Below, one piece after another: positions 19,232-25,146 of a DNA stretch of 51,851 nucleotides. The stretch comes from a virus (lineage: Duplodnaviria; Heunggongvirae; Uroviricota; Caudoviricetes): IMG/VR virus record IMGVR_UViG_2923307698_000007, positions 1 through 51,851 of that record. One strand, written 5' to 3'. Made by a program: the position numbers and the translations under genes. Position 1 is the first letter of the stretch, and each line of letters starts with the position of its first letter. The notes below the pieces were generated by a model, which saw nothing but the letters and a program-made list of their open reading frames with translations, made no database searches and was not told where the DNA came from.

Positions 19232-21169
19232 TCAGCCGCCGGACGCACTGCCGTAGTTCACTCCGGTGATCACCGCCACCGCCGCGGTACGGCGACGACG
19301 CCAGTTGATCCAGCGCTCCGCACGGATGGCCACGCTGCCTGTCTGGAACATGGAAACCAGCTCCACCGGGGACGGCGTGGTACTGTCGCCGGTCGGCTCA
19401 GACTGCATTTCCAGTGATGCCTCGCGGGACATATCCACTGCCACGCCGCCGTCATCCGCCAGATAAATATCCGGGGCATTCACCAGCACCAGCTGGTCAC
19501 CCACGTACTGGGAGACAATCACCGGCAGCCCCTGGAAGGAGCCACCCAGCAGGGTCATGTCCGGGTATTCCTTCTGACCCAGCGCATTTTTACGCATGGA
19601 CAGTGCCAGGGCATTGGTGCTGGACATCAGCCAGACCGCACCGGTGGGCTGCAGGTTTGCTGCCACAAACTGTCCAAACGCCGCCTCTGCATCCGCATCC
19701 GGGTTACCGGTTGATGCCGTGCCCTTCACATCATGGGTGATGGACGCCGGGGAGACATCTGCCACTGCGGCTTTTTTCGGGTCCACAAAGTCTGTATCCA
19801 GACGCGCCACCACCGCTTCCGCCAGCGCATTACGGACCAGTGCATCAGCAGCCGGACTGGAAAAACGGATCAATTCTTCCGTCAGTACCGCAATGGCCGA
19901 CACTTTCGCATGACTGAAGGTGATGGATTCAAAATCAAACTTCGTCAGGGGTTTTGCCTTACCCTCACCCACCCAGCCGGCAGCACCGCCGGACACCTGG
20001 GCGTGCACACGGATATTGAACGGCACCTGACGAAGTGCAGGGATCCCGCCCTGACCAAATCGCCCGATAATGGTCTGCGGACGCAGGTAATCAATAAAGT
20101 CCTGTGCGTATTCCTGATATTCAGACAGGCTGCCTGCCCACTGCGGATCCGTGGTGGTCCCCGCGCCCACTGCCGATTTCAGGACATGATGCAGACGACT
20201 GTCATCCGGATACTGACGACGGGCCACTTCCAGGGCTTCAGATCGGACGCCTTTAGCCGCAGCCAGCGATTTGGCAAAGCGGGCGAAGCCAATCCCCTTC
20301 TCCAGTTTCTGCTCCACACGGATCACCGGCGCAGAAGCCACCGCGGCCACATTCCCGTTACCGGCCTGTTTCACCGGCTGCGCCGTGGCGGCCTTACCGG
20401 CTTCCAGTTCACGCAGGCGCTTCAGGTGCGCATCCACCTGACGGATTTCCGCTGCGGTGTTGTCGTAGTGCTCTTCCTCCTCCACATCCAGCGTGCGCCC
20501 TTCCTCTGCGGCTTTGGTCATGACCTCCTCAAGGGAGGCTGCCAGCGCTGCACGCTTGTTTTCAAAACTTTTAATCTGTTCGCCAATATTCATTATGGTC
20601 TTTTCCTTATGAAAAACGGTTGTTGACTGTGCCGCAGCGCCGGCAGAAGATGCGATTTTCACCACCGGTTTCCGGTTGCCGGACGCGGCAGAAAACGGGC
20701 GGTCGTAAGATTTAATGGTCCGGATGGTGCATTCCGCATTCGCGGGCACGGTGACGGCAGACACCTCCATCAGTTCCCAGCGCAGAAAATGCAGTCCGCC
20801 TCCGTCCAGAAAGGTGTATTCATGGGGACGGAAACCCACGGACAGCCCCCTGACCAGCCCGGTCTTAATGGCCGCCCAGACCTCATCCAGCCGGGCAGCC
20901 AGTTGCGACGGCATATCCGGTACGGGCTTCACCAGTGTTGCCGTGATTTCCAGCCCTTCGCTGACCCGGCGTACCGTACACTGCCCCACCGGGCGGGAAT
21001 GGTCATGCTGCCAGAGAAACGGGATCGCACTGCCAAACTCCGCGCCCTCCGGCTCCAGGATGTCACCATCCCGATCCGGAGAAGGCGTTGACGCAATCCC
21101 GGTGATCACCCGTTCATCCTCACTGAAGGATTTCACCGTCAGCAGGGAACAGGCCCGTTTAAGAGTCAC
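19232..21169 (-). CDS. Prohead protease (S78/U35) - scaffold-like linker - major capsid protein fusion
   Basis: N-terminus has GDILEPEGAEFG, LWQHDHSRPVG, GLSVGF, ELMEVSAVTVPAN protease signatures; central coiled coil; C-terminal about 350 aa capsid-like; GTG start with AGGAGG RBS. Confidence 0.75.
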   Translation of the reverse strand: MTLKRACSLLTVKSFSEDERVITGIASTPSPDRDGDILEPEGAEFGSAIPFLWQHDHSRPVGQCTVRRVSEGLEITATLVKPVPDMPSQLAARLDEVWAAIKTGLVRGLSVGFRPHEYTFLDGGGLHFLRWELMEVSAVTVPANAECTIRTIKSYDRPFSAASGNRKPVVKIASSAGAAAQSTTVFHKEKTIMNIGEQIKSFENKRAALAASLEEVMTKAAEEGRTLDVEEEEHYDNTAAEIRQVDAHLKRLRELEAGKAATAQPVKQAGNGNVAAVASAPVIRVEQKLEKGIGFARFAKSLAAAKGVRSEALEVARRQYPDDSRLHHVLKSAVGAGTTTDPQWAGSLSEYQEYAQDFIDYLRPQTIIGRFGQGGIPALRQVPFNIRVHAQVSGGAAGWVGEGKAKPLTKFDFESITFSHAKVSAIAVLTEELIRFSSPAADALVRNALAEAVVARLDTDFVDPKKAAVADVSPASITHDVKGTASTGNPDADAEAAFGQFVAANLQPTGAVWLMSSTNALALSMRKNALGQKEYPDMTLLGGSFQGLPVIVSQYVGDQLVLVNAPDIYLADDGGVAVDMSREASLEMQSEPTGDSTTPSPVELVSMFQTGSVAIRAERWINWRRRRTAAVAVITGVNYGSASGG

Positions 21170-21232: not shown

Positions 21233-22894
21233 TTATATGAAAAAAACCACATATTCTTTCTTTTTCGGTTCCGGGTTAAGGGACATCAGGGAGACCGCAT
21301 TGAACAGCGCCATCAGCGGGTCAATTTTTCCCCGTCCACTGGCCTGTTTGGTGATAAGAATGGCGTTACCTTTAGGCTCCACCCGGGCATTGCCAACGCA
21401 CCAGGCCATCAGTGGCTGACCACCATGCACCAGCACTCCCTCAGCCAGTTTGCGCTCGGTGGTTTTGATGGCCCCGCCCAGCTTCCAGCCCTGGCTTATC
21501 CCCACCACACTCTCATCGGGGATCCCGGCTTCCGCCAGTGAATCCAGAATCTGCCCCACACCTGACGGGTCAATACCGATATGATCCAGTAACTCAGCCT
21601 CATGAATACGACGCACATACTCTGCCACTTCCGCCGTGTCATCCCCGACCCGACGGACAATCGTCATGTCTCCACAGGCCACAAAATCCTGAAACCGGGA
21701 TACCTCACTCTTCCGTCTGACCACCGCGGTTTCATGCACCCAGGCATGGCCCCAGCCCAGCCATTCGCGGGTTTCCCTGTCACGGCCAATCACGTACATT
21801 CCCAGCAGATCATCCAGGCCCCCGCCGTCAATCCCCACCGTCACCACATCAGCGCGCTGCAGGATATCGTCCAGGCTGACGCGCCTGCCCTGCTGCTCCC
21901 AGAAATCCGCGCCCGCCCAGCGGTCAGAACGCAGGGCAAGACCGATTTCCACATTGGCGTGTTTTGACATGAAGCCACGAAATGCTTCCTCACCAGCCTC
22001 CCGGGCTTTACGGTACTCCCGGTACAGAAAGGCCTCATCCACCGAATAACCGAGATTCGGGTTAACCATGGCGAGGTTTTCCATCAGCAGGTGAGCCCCG
22101 CTTTCCACCATTTCAGGAGGATGCTCAAAAATCACCGGCAGAAAGTGCGGATCATGAATTTTGCCGTCACGGACATCCCGGGCGTACTGCAGTTTCTGCC
22201 TGAACACCCCGGCAGGCGGTTCATTCGACTGGGTGGTTGTGTACACCACAAACCCTTCCGGACGTGAAGCCAGCCCGCCGATGGCTTCACGTAGCATGTC
22301 TTCCGCTTTGTACTGCTTGCCAAACAGCCACAGTTCATCAATCAGTGTCCCCACGGACTTGATACCGGACACCGTATTCGGATCGGCTGCCACCACCTTC
22401 AGGGTGGTGTCCGTCTCCCGATGGGTGATGGTCCGGATATGTGTCTGCACCTGACAGAGGTCATCCAGATCATCGTCCCGTCGTACCATATCCCTGGCAG
22501 GGTTGAAGGCGTTAGCCGCCACCTCCACGGTCGGGGCCAGAATGGTGTAGCCCGCCGCCTGCCGCCAGTTCAGTAACAGCGCCGTCATCATGATCCCCGC
22601 GGCCAGCGTGGACTTACTGTTTTTCTTGGGGATAAGGATAAACACTTCCTTGATATGGCGAACACCGGTCTGCGCATCGTAGGAGCCAAACAGGGCCGCC
22701 ACCAGGTCAAACACCCACGGTGCACAGGACTCCCCGAATGTCGGGCTACCCGGTGCATCCACAATTCGCAGTTGTTTAAAAATCGCCAGTGCATGTGCAG
22801 CCTGGTCCGGATAAATCGGAGCCGGAATAATCGACAGCCCCTTTTTCAGGCGCTCTGCCCAGTCCGGACATGCCGTGCTCCATACAGGTATCAT
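21233..22894 (-). CDS. terL: Terminase large subunit
   Basis: 553 aa; Walker A-like IPKKNSKST and terminase-like nuclease half; 4-nt overlap with TerS. Confidence 0.9.
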   Translation of the reverse strand: MIPVWSTACPDWAERLKKGLSIIPAPIYPDQAAHALAIFKQLRIVDAPGSPTFGESCAPWVFDLVAALFGSYDAQTGVRHIKEVFILIPKKNSKSTLAAGIMMTALLLNWRQAAGYTILAPTVEVAANAFNPARDMVRRDDDLDDLCQVQTHIRTITHRETDTTLKVVAADPNTVSGIKSVGTLIDELWLFGKQYKAEDMLREAIGGLASRPEGFVVYTTTQSNEPPAGVFRQKLQYARDVRDGKIHDPHFLPVIFEHPPEMVESGAHLLMENLAMVNPNLGYSVDEAFLYREYRKAREAGEEAFRGFMSKHANVEIGLALRSDRWAGADFWEQQGRRVSLDDILQRADVVTVGIDGGGLDDLLGMYVIGRDRETREWLGWGHAWVHETAVVRRKSEVSRFQDFVACGDMTIVRRVGDDTAEVAEYVRRIHEAELLDHIGIDPSGVGQILDSLAEAGIPDESVVGISQGWKLGGAIKTTERKLAEGVLVHGGQPLMAWCVGNARVEPKGNAILITKQASGRGKIDPLMALFNAVSLMSLNPEPKKKEYVVFFI

Positions 22895-23454
22895 CCGCTT
22901 TCCTCATTCTGGTTATTCACCACCAGCCGGGGAGGTGGTGGCACCGCAAAACGGTTAGCCGCTTTTTTCGCGGCATCACCTTTTGCCGATTTTTTACCGG
23001 CATCGCCTTTTTTATGGTGTGTGAACTGCGCCAGTCGCCAGGCCGCATCCAGTGCCAGTTTCGGGTCAATTATCAGGTTTTCCACCAGGATCTGCCCCAT
23101 AGCTTTCACCGGATCGGGAAGACCATCCTCCATATATTCAATACCATGAGATATCACCGCGGGCGGAGGCATCTCCGGATTGTTTTCGTCCGGCTGTGGT
23201 ATTGCAGCCACCTCACGGCGACGGGGTTTATCCTCCTGCTCTGATTTTTTCTGCCGGTAAACAGGAACCTCATCCACCTCCACCGTTTCGCACTGTTTAC
23301 GGGCTATAAACGCGAGCACCTCCGGATCTTTTGCCAGCTGCGAGCCTTTAACCCTGGCGGTCTTCGCCGAATAACCGGCGGCAATGGCTGACGCTGTTTT
23401 GTTTTTCCCGGACATGAGCGCCAGCGCAAATTTTCGTTTTTGCGTTGTCAGCAC
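22891..23454 (-). CDS. terS: Terminase small subunit
   Basis: 187 aa with N-terminal HTH-like region, immediately upstream of TerL and downstream of cos-like repeats; GTG start with GGAGG RBS. Confidence 0.65.
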   Translation of the reverse strand: MLTTQKRKFALALMSGKNKTASAIAAGYSAKTARVKGSQLAKDPEVLAFIARKQCETVEVDEVPVYRQKKSEQEDKPRRREVAAIPQPDENNPEMPPPAVISHGIEYMEDGLPDPVKAMGQILVENLIIDPKLALDAAWRLAQFTHHKKGDAGKKSAKGDAAKKAANRFAVPPPPRLVVNNQNEESG

Positions 23455-23526
23455 AGCCTCCTCCCGGGTCCATAACGCACTCAGCCGGGTATGGTTCAGC
23501 CCATTTTTCCCGGCGTCTCATGCCGC

Positions 23527-23654
23527 AAATGTTAACTGCTGCCTGGTTAACATTTGCTGAAAAAGCCAGTTAACATTTTTTTCGCACAACAAACTGAATA
23601 ATAAAGATAAAAACCGAAAAAATGCCCGGGCAGCCAGTTAACATGTTAACTGGC
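23527..23654. other. Putative cos / terminase-binding region with GTTAACAT repeats and a 22-bp perfect palindrome
   Basis: Five GTTAAC-containing motifs at 23527-23578 and palindrome gccagttaacatgttaactggc at 23633-23654, between HNH gene and terS. Confidence 0.4.
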
Positions 23655-23742
23655 CTGAAACAGGAATTTTTTCTCTGCATGAGACGGGGGGCGGTGTCCG
23701 GAGCGATCGTTTTTTACGCCGGATGATACCCCCCCGCTCGGG

Positions 23743-24108
23743 TTACAGTCCGATGATGTCGTCCGCTCTGCCACTACCTCCGGACACCTCCGGCAGCGTC
23801 GGGTCCGGCATACCACCCGCCGCTTCACGAGCAGACTTTTGTCGATGGCATTCGGTACAGAGCGTCCAGAGATTCGTCTCCTCATTACCACCACCGAACT
23901 GAAGTGCAATTCGGTGATCGAGTTCACTGTCACAGAGGTCAACCACACGACCACAGAGACAGCACTGCCCGGCATCCCTGAGCCGGATATGACGCTTGAG
24001 GGAAACACGTGCACTGCCACTGACACGACGCTGTTCACCCTTCAGAATATTCACCCGCCGGGTGTTCAGAGTTTTGATTCTGCCCGGTAACGTACGAAGC
24101 ACAGCCAT
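23743..24108 (-). CDS. HNH endonuclease (terminase-associated, HK97 gp74-like position)
   Basis: 121 aa with CxxC...DHRIALQFGG...CTECHRQK HNH/zinc motif, adjacent to cos and terS. Confidence 0.85.
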   Translation of the reverse strand: MAVLRTLPGRIKTLNTRRVNILKGEQRRVSGSARVSLKRHIRLRDAGQCCLCGRVVDLCDSELDHRIALQFGGGNEETNLWTLCTECHRQKSAREAAGGMPDPTLPEVSGGSGRADDIIGL

Positions 24109-24149: not shown

Positions 24150-24350
24150 ATGTCATCGAAAAACCGGCCCCGCAGAACAACAACCCGCAACATCCGTTTC
24201 CCCAATCACATGATTGAACAGATCAATATCGCCCTTGAACATAAAGGTTCCGGTAACTTTTCAGCGTGGGTTATTGAAGCCTGCAGGAGAAGGCTGGCAA
24301 CAGATGCAACGCATCTGCGTCCGGCCAGCATGACAAATAACGAGAAATGA
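24150..24350 (+). CDS. DUF3950 (YlcI-like) small protein
   Basis: 66 aa; TTTRNIRFPNHMIEQINIALEHKGSGNFSAWVIEACRRRL resembles recalled E. coli YlcI; GAGG RBS. Confidence 0.6.
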   Translation: MSSKNRPRRTTTRNIRFPNHMIEQINIALEHKGSGNFSAWVIEACRRRLATDATHLRPASMTNNEK

Positions 24351-24481: not shown

Positions 24482-24814
24482 TCAGGGTGCAGAAGGACTA
24501 AAGATAAACGTTTTCTTCACGCCTTTACGCGGCCTGTCCTTCTCAAATCGCCATTTTGCCATCGCCTTTACAACCTGCTCATCAAACAGATGGTGCGGCT
24601 CTGAACGGATAAACTCAATTCGGGTGACAGTACCATCAGCACCAATATCAAACTTCACATCAACCCGTCCCTTTATATAATTTGCCGCTGCATAGGCCGG
24701 ATATTGTGGTAATGCCTTAACCAACTGTCGGGGCATATCTGTTTTATGTTGCGTACAGCCCATAACCAGAGAAGACAACAAAATAATTAACGGAAGATTT
24801 CTTTTCATTTTCAT
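24482..24814 (-). CDS. Lipoprotein with TonB C-terminal-like domain (moron at bor-like position)
   Basis: Signal peptide MKMKRNLPLIILLSSLVMGC with lipobox; start uncertain (GTG 24823, ATG 24814 or 24808). Confidence 0.5.
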   Translation of the reverse strand: MKMKRNLPLIILLSSLVMGCTQHKTDMPRQLVKALPQYPAYAAANYIKGRVDVKFDIGADGTVTRIEFIRSEPHHLFDEQVVKAMAKWRFEKDRPRKGVKKTFIFSPSAP

Positions 24815-25146
24815 TCCCGGCACAGATAAGAATAAGTCTTATTCTAACAATGCCACCCTGTCGGCCATCAATCCTCTGCTTAATGGCAACGACAATTATC
24901 CGACTTAAATCACAAATCAGACACATGACATAACAGGTCTTGCGAGGTAACACATCGTCCGGTTTCTTCCACCATCGCACCGAACCAGCGACCATGAGGG
25001 GACAACGCCGCGCTCCGTTAACGCGGTAAACCCCGGTGTGTATCGTTTTTGATTATCCCCGCACACTCGCGCAGAGGAGTCTCCCTGTCGGGCTGCGGTC
25101 TCTGTTAATGAGGGAATACAGCGACGATACGGCGCATCAGCAAAAC

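What the first reader, a model, noticed from the sequence alone, without database searches (positions are those of the whole stretch)
23527..23654. Cluster of GTTAACAT repeats and a 22-bp perfect palindrome upstream of terS
Five GTTAAC-containing motifs in alternating orientation and the palindrome gccagttaacatgttaactggc lie between the HNH endonuclease gene and terS. This is where the cos site and terminase small-subunit binding sites are expected in an HK97-type packaging module.
Basis: partly seen in the sequence, partly recalled or inferred. Interest (0 to 1): 0.45.

Follow-up and report, generated by a model that had tools for sequence, protein, structure and literature searches.

The report
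Terminase docking repeats beside cos site
The GTTAACAT repeats are real and are most likely the docking sites (a cosB) where this Shiga-toxin-type prophage's small terminase binds, just inside the virion DNA end; the cut site itself lies 30 bp outside the flagged interval, so this is an ordinary kind of element, though unannotated in a very common E. coli prophage family.

Summary
Five of the window's seven GTTAACAT copies lie in 23529-23650, and 23633-23654 is a perfect 22-bp palindrome, the longest in the window.

The cos cleavage site is not in the interval. By homology to Stx1 phage Lys8385Vzw, whose virion ends were mapped (3' cohesive end CGCCCCCCCT), the 10-nt overhang is at 23684-23693, 30 bp beyond the palindrome.

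The repeats occupy +34 to +155 of the virion left end, between the cut and terS, which is the cosB position. TerS binding is inferred, not shown.

The main evidence is co-variation between the repeat and the TerS recognition helix (residues 33-41):
- RVKGS goes with GTTAAC.
- RCKGS goes with GTTTAC/T, with all five half-sites switched together.
- RVKG[W/C] goes with GTTACAC.

There were no exceptions in 115 loci selected only by the cleavage-site sequence. The GTTACAC group includes PICI-like satellites that share this phage's cut site, encode their own TerS, and lack TerL and HNH.

Hairpin, terminator, IHF and known-RNA readings found little or no support.

Verdict: a new, unannotated member of a known kind (a cosB-like terminase recognition array), present in about 23% of complete E. 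coli genomes. Moderate interest.

The parts
23684..23693 (-). Predicted cosN overhang: CGCCCCCCGT in gene orientation, a 10-nt 3' cohesive end. +1 of the virion left end corresponds to window 23683, counting downward.
   Evidence: The Lys8385Vzw record ends ...ggacacCGCCCCCCCT and restarts ctcacgcagagaaaaaatt..., with PhageTerm 3' cos (PMC7946995). Bcep176 carries a 10-nt terminal repeat at the homologous position.
23655..23735 (-). Conserved cos core. It includes the G-run (23729-23735 as C7 on the + strand), GGACAC, the overhang, CTCATGC and the A6 tract (23667-23672).
   Evidence: Conserved upstream of terS in 22 loci from other Enterobacterales genera and Burkholderia, and in satellites. 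HK97 has a similar G-run+ATCA about 42 nt before its end.
23633..23654 (.). Proximal site: 22-bp palindrome made of two inverted half-sites (GTTAACAT at +34..+41, ATGTTAAC at +40..+47).
   Evidence: The first repeat starts at +33/+34 in every lineage, whatever its sequence.
23577..23632 (-). A/T-rich spacer with T-tracts about 9-10 bp apart (+62, +71) and an A7 tract (+102). A likely intrinsic bend.
   Evidence: the tract phasing is kept in L088 and L217 although their sequences differ. There is no IHF consensus here.
23569..23576 (-). Distal half-site Ra (ATGTTAAC, +108..+115). It shares 13-14 nt, including the 3' flank, with the right half of the palindrome.
   Evidence: (D3, D6).
23546..23553 (-). 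Distal half-site Rb (ATGTTAAC, +131..+138).
   Evidence: (I5).
23529..23536 (+). Distal half-site Rc (inverted; GTTAACAT at +148..+155 in gene orientation). With Rb it forms a 12-bp inverted repeat with a 9-bp gap.
   Evidence: (I5).
22891..23454 (-). terS. Pfam Terminase_2; N-terminal HTH DNA-binding domain (residues 1-56) with recognition helix 33-41 (ARVKGSQLA).
21233..22894 (-). terL (ATPase plus nuclease domains), a distant homologue of HK97 gp2.
23743..24108 (-). HNH endonuclease gene immediately upstream of cos.

Best explanation
The five GTTAACAT half-sites are the cosB of this prophage. They form the array of recognition sites for the helix-turn-helix domains of the oligomeric small terminase (TerS). 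The array sits at +34 to +155 of the virion chromosome, between the cleavage site cosN (10-nt 3' overhang, window 23684-23693) and terS.

Proposed mechanism:
- TerS binds the proximal palindrome (two half-sites) and the distal trio.
- The intervening T-tract DNA bends so that one TerS ring can touch both clusters.
- This positions TerL and the HNH nuclease on cosN, about 30-45 bp away, to make the staggered cut.
- Packaging then proceeds toward terS and terL (lower window coordinates).

Shown here: the repeats, their non-random clustering, the position of the virion end in a near-identical relative, the TerS fold, and the co-variation.

Inferred: physical TerS binding, bending or wrapping, and the direction of packaging.
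For: 1. Position. Lys8385Vzw virion ends (PhageTerm, 3' cos, CGCCCCCCCT; PMC7946995) fall exactly at the sequence homologous to 23684-23693. The record restarts 33 nt before the GTTAAC palindrome. Bcep176, PhiBt-E264.1 and vB_E184 record ends agree.

2. Fixed register. Across Enterobacterales phages, a Burkholderia locus and the satellites, the first repeat starts at +33/+34 whatever its sequence.

3. Co-variation with the TerS recognition helix (helix 33-41 of a model with pLDDT 92-96, whose best fold match is the SF6 TerS DNA-binding domain, TMt 0.84):
- RVKGS goes with GTTAACATGTTAAC.
- RCKGS goes with TATAAACATGTTTATA plus distal ATGTTTAT/C, so all five half-sites switched together.
- RSKGS goes with [GA]TAAACATGTTAAC.
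- RSQGS goes with GTTAACGTGTTAAC.
- RVKG[W/C] goes with AAGTTACAC.
- In 119 IMG/VR loci selected only by the cosN core, there were no exceptions among the 115 with a TerS.

4. The repeat follows the TerS N-terminal domain rather than the other packaging proteins.
- Satellites have N-terminal identity of 50-58% but C-terminal identity of 60-70%, and a new motif.
- Phages of other genera have N-terminal 71-81% and C-terminal 32-40%, and a similar motif.
- L217 has TerL 96% identical but a switched motif. L088 has TerL 83% identical and keeps the motif.
- The one satellite read in full (L230) has no TerL and no HNH, but its own TerS.

5. Purifying selection.
- 0 of 24 columns in the three distal 8-mers vary, against 53 of 182 columns in the region (P = 1.3e-4).
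- Where the site overlaps the terS start, Leu2 (Phe in L022) is read from TTA/TTT and never CTG: 19 of 23 loci start ATGTTAAC, and three more start GTGTTAAC or GTGTTTAC.
- Where the start is displaced, the codon is CTG (7 loci).
Against: - No binding experiment exists for this TerS family.
- The loci compared are related, so the co-variation counts are not independent events. About five specificity classes were seen.
- HNH also differs between the GTTAAC and GTTTAC lineages (84% identity).
- The flanks shared by Ra and the palindrome within each lineage (and the sequences) could reflect gene conversion rather than protein contacts.
- HK97, the best-studied HNH-type cos phage, needs only one TerS site (PMC11331095), so the distal trio may be dispensable.
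- No IHF consensus lies in the spacer, unlike lambda cosB.
Confidence: 0.75

Rival explanations
1. The inverted repeats act as nucleic-acid structure rather than protein sites. They could be a hairpin in the late mRNA (terminator, attenuator, processing site or translational control of terS) or a DNA cruciform.
For: The minus-strand RNA folds with both inverted repeats as hairpins, MFE -83.6 kcal/mol, z = -2.9. Both arms change together in L217 (GTAAAC/GTTTAC) and in L088 (GGTG/CACC flanks), which keeps the pairing.
Against: - The unpaired direct copy Ra changes in concert too.
- Satellites use direct repeats 12 bp apart that cannot pair.
- Most distant relatives have only a 14-bp quasi-palindrome over the start codon.
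- There is no canonical terminator at the palindrome. The one weak terminator-like hit is a 5-bp stem at 23614-23629, and hits are at chance level.
- There is no Rfam match.
- The outer palindrome arms are not conserved.
Confidence: 0.08
2. The sites are read by another protein, such as the HNH nuclease, TerL, a host nucleoid protein (IHF, Fis, H-NS) or a phage regulator.
For: HNH differs (84% identity) between the GTTAAC and GTTTAC lineages. A/T-rich bent DNA attracts nucleoid proteins.
Against: - A satellite with a different repeat carries TerS but no HNH or TerL.
- TerL is 96% identical across the motif switch.
- A host factor cannot explain lineage-specific motif switches within E. coli.
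- There is no IHF consensus.
- Only 2 other GTTAACAT copies occur in the window, as chance predicts, so no regulon-like distribution is seen.
Confidence: 0.08
3. The array is a functionless relic. Duplicated or recombined 5' ends of terS (ATG TTA ACx = Met-Leu-Thr) were left behind when the start of terS moved about 190 bp downstream.
For: - The palindrome lies exactly where relatives have the terS start codon.
- Rb plus its spacer (ATGTTAACCAGGCAG) resembles terS 5' ends such as ATGTTAACAGGGCAG.
- A 24-codon open frame without a Shine-Dalgarno sequence starts at the palindrome's ATG (sequence).
Against: - This may well be the origin, but it does not explain the maintenance.
- There is zero variation in the distal cores (P = 1.3e-4).
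- All five half-sites switched in concert.
- The T-tract phasing is conserved.
- Satellites carry their own arrays that match their own TerS.
Confidence: 0.07
4. The 22-bp palindrome is itself the cos cleavage site.
For: Symmetric sites are typical nuclease targets, and the palindrome lies in the right intergenic region.
Against: The mapped end of Lys8385Vzw lies 33 nt upstream of the GTTAAC core. Bcep176 and the related Burkholderia phage records end at the homologous place.
Confidence: 0.02

Closest known systems
Phage lambda cosB (R3-I1-R2-R1 sites bound by the winged-HTH of gpNu1)
   Same: Both are an array of short repeats in both orientations, lying between cosN and the small-terminase gene on the side packaged first. 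Both have bendable DNA between a proximal and a distal cluster, read by an N-terminal HTH of TerS. As in lambda-type PICIs (EcCICFT073: same cosN, different cosB; PMC6092414), specificity resides in cosB.
   Different: - No sequence or protein homology: Nu1 versus Terminase_2.
- 3' 10-nt overhang with an HNH helper, versus a 5' 12-nt overhang made by gpA alone.
- No IHF consensus; phased T-tracts instead.
- The proximal site here is a palindrome.
HK97 cos and packaging module (gp74 HNH, gp1 TerS, gp2 TerL)
   Same: - Gene order HNH - cos - terS - terL.
- 10-nt 3' overhang.
- TerL homologous (23% identity, E = 9e-12).
- Similar cos-core layout: G-run+ATCA about 42-45 nt before the end, and a cut after 'AC' before 'CGC'.
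- TerS site downstream of the cut, next to an A-tract.
   Different: - HK97 TerS is unrelated and binds a single 15-bp site at +15..+29 through arms and a central channel (PMC11331095).
- Here there are five half-sites from +34 to +155 and an SF6-like HTH.
- The HNH proteins share only the HNH motif.
- Head genes here are a protease-capsid fusion followed by the portal.
SPP1/SF6 G1P small terminase and its pac region (repeated boxes in pacL/pacR flanking the cut site)
   Same: Same TerS family (Pfam PF03592). Same N-terminal DNA-binding fold (4zc3, TMt 0.84, rmsd 1.6 A). Multiple repeated boxes with intrinsically bent DNA, by my own knowledge of the SPP1 literature.
   Different: Those phages package by the headful (pac) mechanism without an HNH partner. 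Here the ends are precise cohesive ends.
Satellite packaging hijack: SaPI-encoded TerS (pac), SaPIbov5 Ccm (cos/HNH helpers), and EcCICFT073 Rpp with its own cosB
   Same: The PICI-like islands found here keep the helper's cosN, down to an identical overhang CGCCCCCCGT. They carry a different cosB, plus a capsid homologue without a protease domain.
   Different: They combine a cos-type site with a satellite-encoded TerS, and they lack TerL and HNH. This differs from EcCICFT073 (no TerS, uses Rpp), from SaPIbov5 (no TerS), and from cf-PICIs (full TerS+TerL+HNH set).

Membership tests
HNH-dependent 3'-overhang cos packaging module (HK97 type, Kala et al. 2014) | HNH endonuclease gene directly upstream of cos and of terS-terL | tested here: met
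   HNH (PF01844, E = 7e-7) at 24108..23743, terS at 23454..22891 and terL at 22894..21233, all on the minus strand.
HNH-dependent 3'-overhang cos packaging module (HK97 type, Kala et al. 2014) | Defined cohesive ends with a roughly 10-nt 3' overhang in the HNH-terS spacer | tested here: met
   The evidence is indirect. Relative Lys8385Vzw has PhageTerm 3' cos CGCCCCCCCT, and its record ends there (PMC7946995). The window differs by 1 nt in the overhang (23684-23693). This prophage's own virions were not examined.
HNH-dependent 3'-overhang cos packaging module (HK97 type, Kala et al. 2014) | TerL of the HK97 gp2 / Terminase_1 lineage | tested here: met
   PF03354 plus PF20441. 23% identity to HK97 gp2 over 490 aligned columns, E = 9e-12.
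HNH-dependent 3'-overhang cos packaging module (HK97 type, Kala et al. 2014) | TerS homologous to HK97 gp1 with a single +15..+29 binding site | tested here: not met
   BLASTP E = 1.1. TerS is Terminase_2 with an SF6-like HTH. There are five half-sites at +34..+155.
HNH-dependent 3'-overhang cos packaging module (HK97 type, Kala et al. 2014) | HNH protein stimulates TerL cleavage at cos | not testable with these tools
   This needs an in vitro cleavage assay.
cosB-type small-terminase recognition array (lambda paradigm) | Repeated sites between cosN and the TerS gene, on the end packaged first | tested here: met
   Half-sites at +34, +40, +108, +131 and +148; terS starts at +230.
cosB-type small-terminase recognition array (lambda paradigm) | Site sequence co-varies with the TerS DNA-binding domain and determines packaging specificity | tested here: met
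   Five TerS helix classes match five motif classes, with no exceptions in 115 loci. Specificity in vivo was not tested.
cosB-type small-terminase recognition array (lambda paradigm) | IHF site between proximal and distal repeats | tested here: not met
   No WATCAANNNNTTR match with up to 1 mismatch in 23455-23742. Phased T-tracts are present instead.
cosB-type small-terminase recognition array (lambda paradigm) | Direct binding of TerS to the repeats | not testable with these tools
   This needs EMSA or footprinting.
SF6/SPP1 G1P-like small terminase (Pfam Terminase_2) | Sequence membership and an N-terminal HTH DNA-binding fold | tested here: met
   PF03592, 36 bits against a cut-off of 26.1. 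Model residues 1-56 have pLDDT 92-96. Match to 4zc3: TMt 0.84, rmsd 1.6 A, probability 1.00.
SF6/SPP1 G1P-like small terminase (Pfam Terminase_2) | Headful (pac) packaging | tested here: not met
   The relative has defined cohesive ends.

The most novel reading that the evidence does not exclude
The TerS recognition helix and the repeat form a small, evolvable packaging-specificity code that sits on top of an invariant cleavage site. A family of about 8-12 kb PICI-like E. coli islands exploits this code. Each has an integrase, a replication ATPase, its own TerS, and a capsid homologue without a protease domain. These islands keep the cosN of Stx-type phages (identical overhang) and a TerS C-terminal domain that fits the helper's TerL, but they switch the HTH and the repeats to GTTACAC. 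They would therefore parasitise Shiga-toxin-type phages through a TerS swap at a cos site. That combination matches none of the satellite types I compared it with (EcCICFT073, SaPIbov5, cf-PICIs).
Probability: 0.45. Interest if true: 0.6.

Novelty: new member of a known kind. Interest (0 to 1): 0.4.

Why it matters
This intergenic region is present, without annotation, in 1,249 of 5,426 complete E. coli genomes, with 2,953 copies and up to 7 per genome. It occurs in many Stx1, Stx2a and Stx2c converting phages.

Knowing cosN (23684-23693) and a candidate cosB has several uses:
- It gives a defined packaging signal for this family.
- It helps predict which prophages and satellites can be mobilised together.
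- It helps in designing cos plasmids or transduction assays for STEC phages.
- It helps explain why defective prophages that keep cos and terS may still be packaged. An example is PPompW, which carries an IS beside the G-run.

The co-variation table gives precise, cheap mutational predictions: V35C should shift preference to GTTTAC, and S38W to GTTACAC. No surprising new principle is involved.

Tried and rejected
- Ends of deposited Stx prophage records. Almost all are cut from chromosomes, so their ends say nothing. The phi330 record is opened arbitrarily at the terS/terL boundary, and its paper says nothing about packaging.
- Literature search for the overhang strings themselves. Nothing relevant was found. 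Kala et al. 2014 is not held.
- IHF consensus. None lies in the region, and window-wide hits are at chance level.
- Promoter and terminator scan. It found one promoter-like hit on the wrong strand and one weak 5-bp stem, at chance level.
- Rfam. No match with E up to 1.
- GTTAAC in distant relatives. The initial scan seemed negative. Reading the sequences showed that the related GTAAAC/ATGTTAAC site overlaps the terS start.
- HK97 gp1 and gp74 as homologues of TerS and HNH. Not supported.

Full report
**Setting.** The genes around the finding are on the minus strand.
- The HNH endonuclease gene is at 24108..23743 (PF01844).
- terS is at 23454..22891 (PF03592, Terminase_2).
- terL is at 22894..21233 (PF03354 plus PF20441).
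- Upstream in the direction of transcription are lysozyme, an Ant-like gene and Rz.
- Downstream are a prohead-protease/capsid fusion, the portal, connector proteins and the tail tube.

The window is a lambdoid prophage of the BP-4795 / 2851 / Stx1a-phage type, 92-98% identical across 23300-23900 to 93 phage records. Its 288-bp HNH-terS spacer is 100% identical to E. coli O145 RM9872. That spacer occurs in 1,249 of 5,426 complete E. coli genomes (2,953 places), with no annotated feature under any listed match.

**The observation.** It holds.
- GTTAACAT occurs 7 times in the window (1.5 expected; 0 of 100 shuffles reach 7). Five copies lie in 23529-23650.
- GCCAGTTAACATGTTAACTGGC (23633-23654) is a perfect 22-bp palindrome and the longest in the window. 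Only 2 of 200 block shuffles reach 22 bp.
- The orientations are -,+,+,+,- on the + strand, so they do not strictly alternate.

**Where the cos cut is.** In 22 distant TerS relatives fetched from other Enterobacterales genera and a Burkholderia genome, a roughly 75-bp element lies just upstream of terS: G-run, GGACAC, a C-rich decamer, then CTCAYGC-AGAAAAAAT. The same element is in the window at about 23660-23735, next to the flagged interval but not inside it.

Three sets of physical-end evidence place the cut inside this element:
- Burkholderia phage Bcep176 carries the same 10 nt (CGCACGTTCC) at both record ends. PhiBt-E264.1 and vB_E184 break 2-4 nt away.
- HK97, which has 10-nt 3' overhangs (PMC9410871), ends in a similar context: G-run+ATCA about 42 nt upstream, and ...gaC|CGCCGCCAAA.
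- Decisively, Stx1 phage Lys8385Vzw was sequenced from virions and typed by PhageTerm as cos with 3' cohesive ends CGCCCCCCCT (PMC7946995). Its record ends ...ggacacCGCCCCCCCT and restarts ctcacgcagagaaaaaattcccgtttcagggcaGTTAACatGTTAACtggc.

The window reads ggacacCGCCCCCCGTctcatgcagagaaaaaattcctgtttcaggccaGTTAAC... The homologous overhang is therefore 23684-23693, and +1 of the left end is 23683.

The ends are in the same spacer but 30 bp outside the interval, and they are not the palindrome.

**Anatomy of the array in packaging coordinates.**
- A6 tract at +12.
- Proximal palindrome with half-sites at +34 (inverted) and +40.
- About 60 bp of A/T-rich spacer, with T-tracts about 9-10 bp apart at +62 and +71, and A7 at +102.
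- Distal half-sites at +108, +131 and +148 (inverted).
- terS GTG at +230.

The same layout recurs in diverged E. coli lineages (L088, TerS 65% identical; L217, TerS about 78%). The T-tract phasing is kept although the spacer sequence differs.

**What reads the repeats.** The TerS model has a confident N-terminal four-helix domain (pLDDT 92-96; helices 4-14, 19-25, 33-41, 44-56). Its best structural match is the SF6 small-terminase DNA-binding domain (4zc3, TMt 0.84, rmsd 1.6 A). The residues that vary among relatives (35, 38, 39) lie in helix 33-41, the recognition-helix position of the HTH.

The repeat sequence tracks these residues:

| TerS helix | Found in | Repeat |
|---|---|---|
| ARVKGSQL | window, L219 (and L088, with R39) | GTTAACATGTTAAC plus distal ATGTTAAC |
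| ARCKGSQL | L217/L218, L087 | TATAAACATGTTTATA plus distal ATGTTTATA, ATGTTTAC, GTAAACAT |
| ARSKGSQL | many genera | [GA]TAAACATGTTAAC |
| ARSQGSRL | L022, L024, L025 | GTTAACGTGTT[AT]AC |
| ARVKG[W/C]QL | satellites, a Hafnia phage | AAGTTACAC |

In the ARCKGSQL lineage all five half-sites switched TTAAC to TTTAC/T together.

In an unbiased sample of 119 IMG/VR loci chosen only by the cosN core, the association had no exception among the 115 with a TerS. The first repeat always starts at +33/+34.

**Why TerS and not another protein.**
- TerL is 96% identical between the window and L217 although the motif switched. It is only 83% identical in L088, where the motif is kept.
- The GTTACAC elements are small islands. 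The one read in full (L230) has an integrase, an AAA_25 replication protein, TerS and a capsid homologue. It has no TerL, HNH, portal or tail genes, and it lies between a yejM-like gene and narP/ccm.
- Some of these islands carry the same overhang as the window (CGCCCCCCGT).
- Their TerS is mosaic: the N-terminal domain is 50-58% identical to the window's, and the C-terminal domain 60-70%. Phages of other genera show the reverse, 71-81% and 32-40%.

The only packaging protein that changes with the repeat in every comparison is therefore the N-terminal domain of TerS.

**Evidence of constraint at the DNA level.**
- Among 56 distinct close relatives, 53 of 182 columns between the palindrome core and terS vary. 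None of the 24 columns of the three distal 8-mers does (P = 1.3e-4).
- In relatives whose terS start codon sits at +40, the site overlaps codons 1-3. 19 of 23 loci start ATGTTAAC, and three more start GTGTTAAC or GTGTTTAC. Codon 2 is TTA (TTT in L022), never the common CTG.
- In the seven lineages whose start lies elsewhere, including the window, that codon is CTG.
- The window palindrome is at the position of the ancestral terS start (blastn aligns through it). The array probably arose from duplicated terS 5' ends and was then kept.

**Rivals.**
- A hairpin or terminator reading explains the two inverted pairs (fold z = -2.9). It does not explain the co-varying direct copy, the direct repeats in the satellites, or the non-conserved outer arms. 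There is also no canonical terminator and no Rfam hit.
- A host factor cannot explain motif switches within one host species, and no IHF consensus is present.
- The palindrome as the cut site is contradicted by the mapped ends.

**Comparison with known systems.**
- The arrangement works like lambda cosB: repeats in both orientations, a bend, and an HTH TerS, with specificity in cosB and cleavage in cosN. There is no homology to lambda, and the bend has phased T-tracts instead of an IHF site.
- It is embedded in an HK97-like HNH/3'-overhang module. TerL is homologous to HK97 gp2, but TerS is not homologous to gp1.
- It is read by an SF6/SPP1-type TerS that in those phages serves headful packaging.

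**Limits.**
- No binding, bending or packaging experiment exists for this family.
- The virion ends come from a relative that is nearly identical across this spacer, not from this prophage.
- The co-variation classes number about five and are phylogenetically nested.
- The role of the distal trio, as opposed to the proximal palindrome, is unknown.

**Verdict.**
- The element is an unannotated member of a known kind.

Overall interest is moderate at 0.4. The satellite connection is the most novel lead.

Noticed in passing
L230:3446-11944 (E. coli GCA_012987925.1); also L091-L093, L223-L224, L089-L090, L231, L234: PICI-like islands of about 8-12 kb (integrase, AAA_25 replication protein or AlpA, own TerS). 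They carry the same cos core as the window, in some with the identical overhang CGCCCCCCGT, but GTTACAC repeats. In the one island read in full (L230) there is no TerL, HNH, portal or tail gene. The 307-aa gene after terS is a capsid homologue without a protease domain (PF05065, 28 bits; 23% identity, E = 1e-19 to the capsid part of window 19232-21169), reminiscent of SaPIbov5 Ccm.
   Followed up: partly
L227:2925-4388 (PPompW_132418, LC567822); homologous to window ~23729-23735: An IS110-family ISEc20 abuts the cos G-run in all 7 listed PPompW-carrying records. Upstream of it come tRNA genes and Q, so the lysis genes and HNH are missing, while cosN, the repeats, terS and terL remain.
   Followed up: partly
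L003-L019, L022, L024, L025 around position 2501 (terS start): In most relatives the TerS site overlaps the terS start codon (gtaaacATGTTAACag). Codon 2 is then TTA (TTT in one locus) rather than CTG. This is a DNA-site constraint on codon choice, and possibly a route to autoregulation.
   Followed up: partly
window 23573-23647 (minus strand): A 24-codon open frame (MLTGCPGIFSVFIFIIQFVVRKKC) starts at the palindrome's ATG and stops in the TAA of repeat Ra. It has no Shine-Dalgarno sequence and looks like the relic of the ancestral terS start.
   Followed up: no
L226:640-733 and L225:1-50 (HK97 cos): The HK97 cos region shares the G-run+ATCA about 42 nt before the end and the '..aC|CGC..' context at the left cut with this family. 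The A/T-rich 'ATCATTTCA/TGAATGAT' stretch upstream is also seen in L015, L017 and L019. The cos cores of these otherwise distant modules appear to be homologous.
   Followed up: partly
window 24150-24350 (+) and 24482-24823 (-): Two small genes lie between the lysis cassette and HNH. One is a DUF3950 gene on the opposite strand. The other is a 113-aa protein with a lipoprotein-like N-terminus (LVMGC) and a TonB_C domain (E = 6e-15). Both are possible morons in the late region.
   Followed up: no
window 16274-17659 (-): A 461-aa ORF lies between the portal and the head-tail connector genes. It has only weak, fragmentary Pfam hits and its function is unknown.
   Followed up: no
window 19232-21169 (-) and 17656-19020 (-): The prohead protease (Peptidase_S78) and the major capsid protein are fused in one 645-aa ORF. 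This ORF precedes the portal gene, an order different from HK97 (portal, protease, capsid).
   Followed up: no
L021:2330-2400 (Morganella morganii) and L020:2440-2500 (Pantoea): These relatives start terS with ATGCTGAC and carry GTTAAC/ATTAAC/GTTAAT-type copies in other places. In Morganella a cluster lies upstream of the G-run. The array position may not be universal.
   Followed up: no
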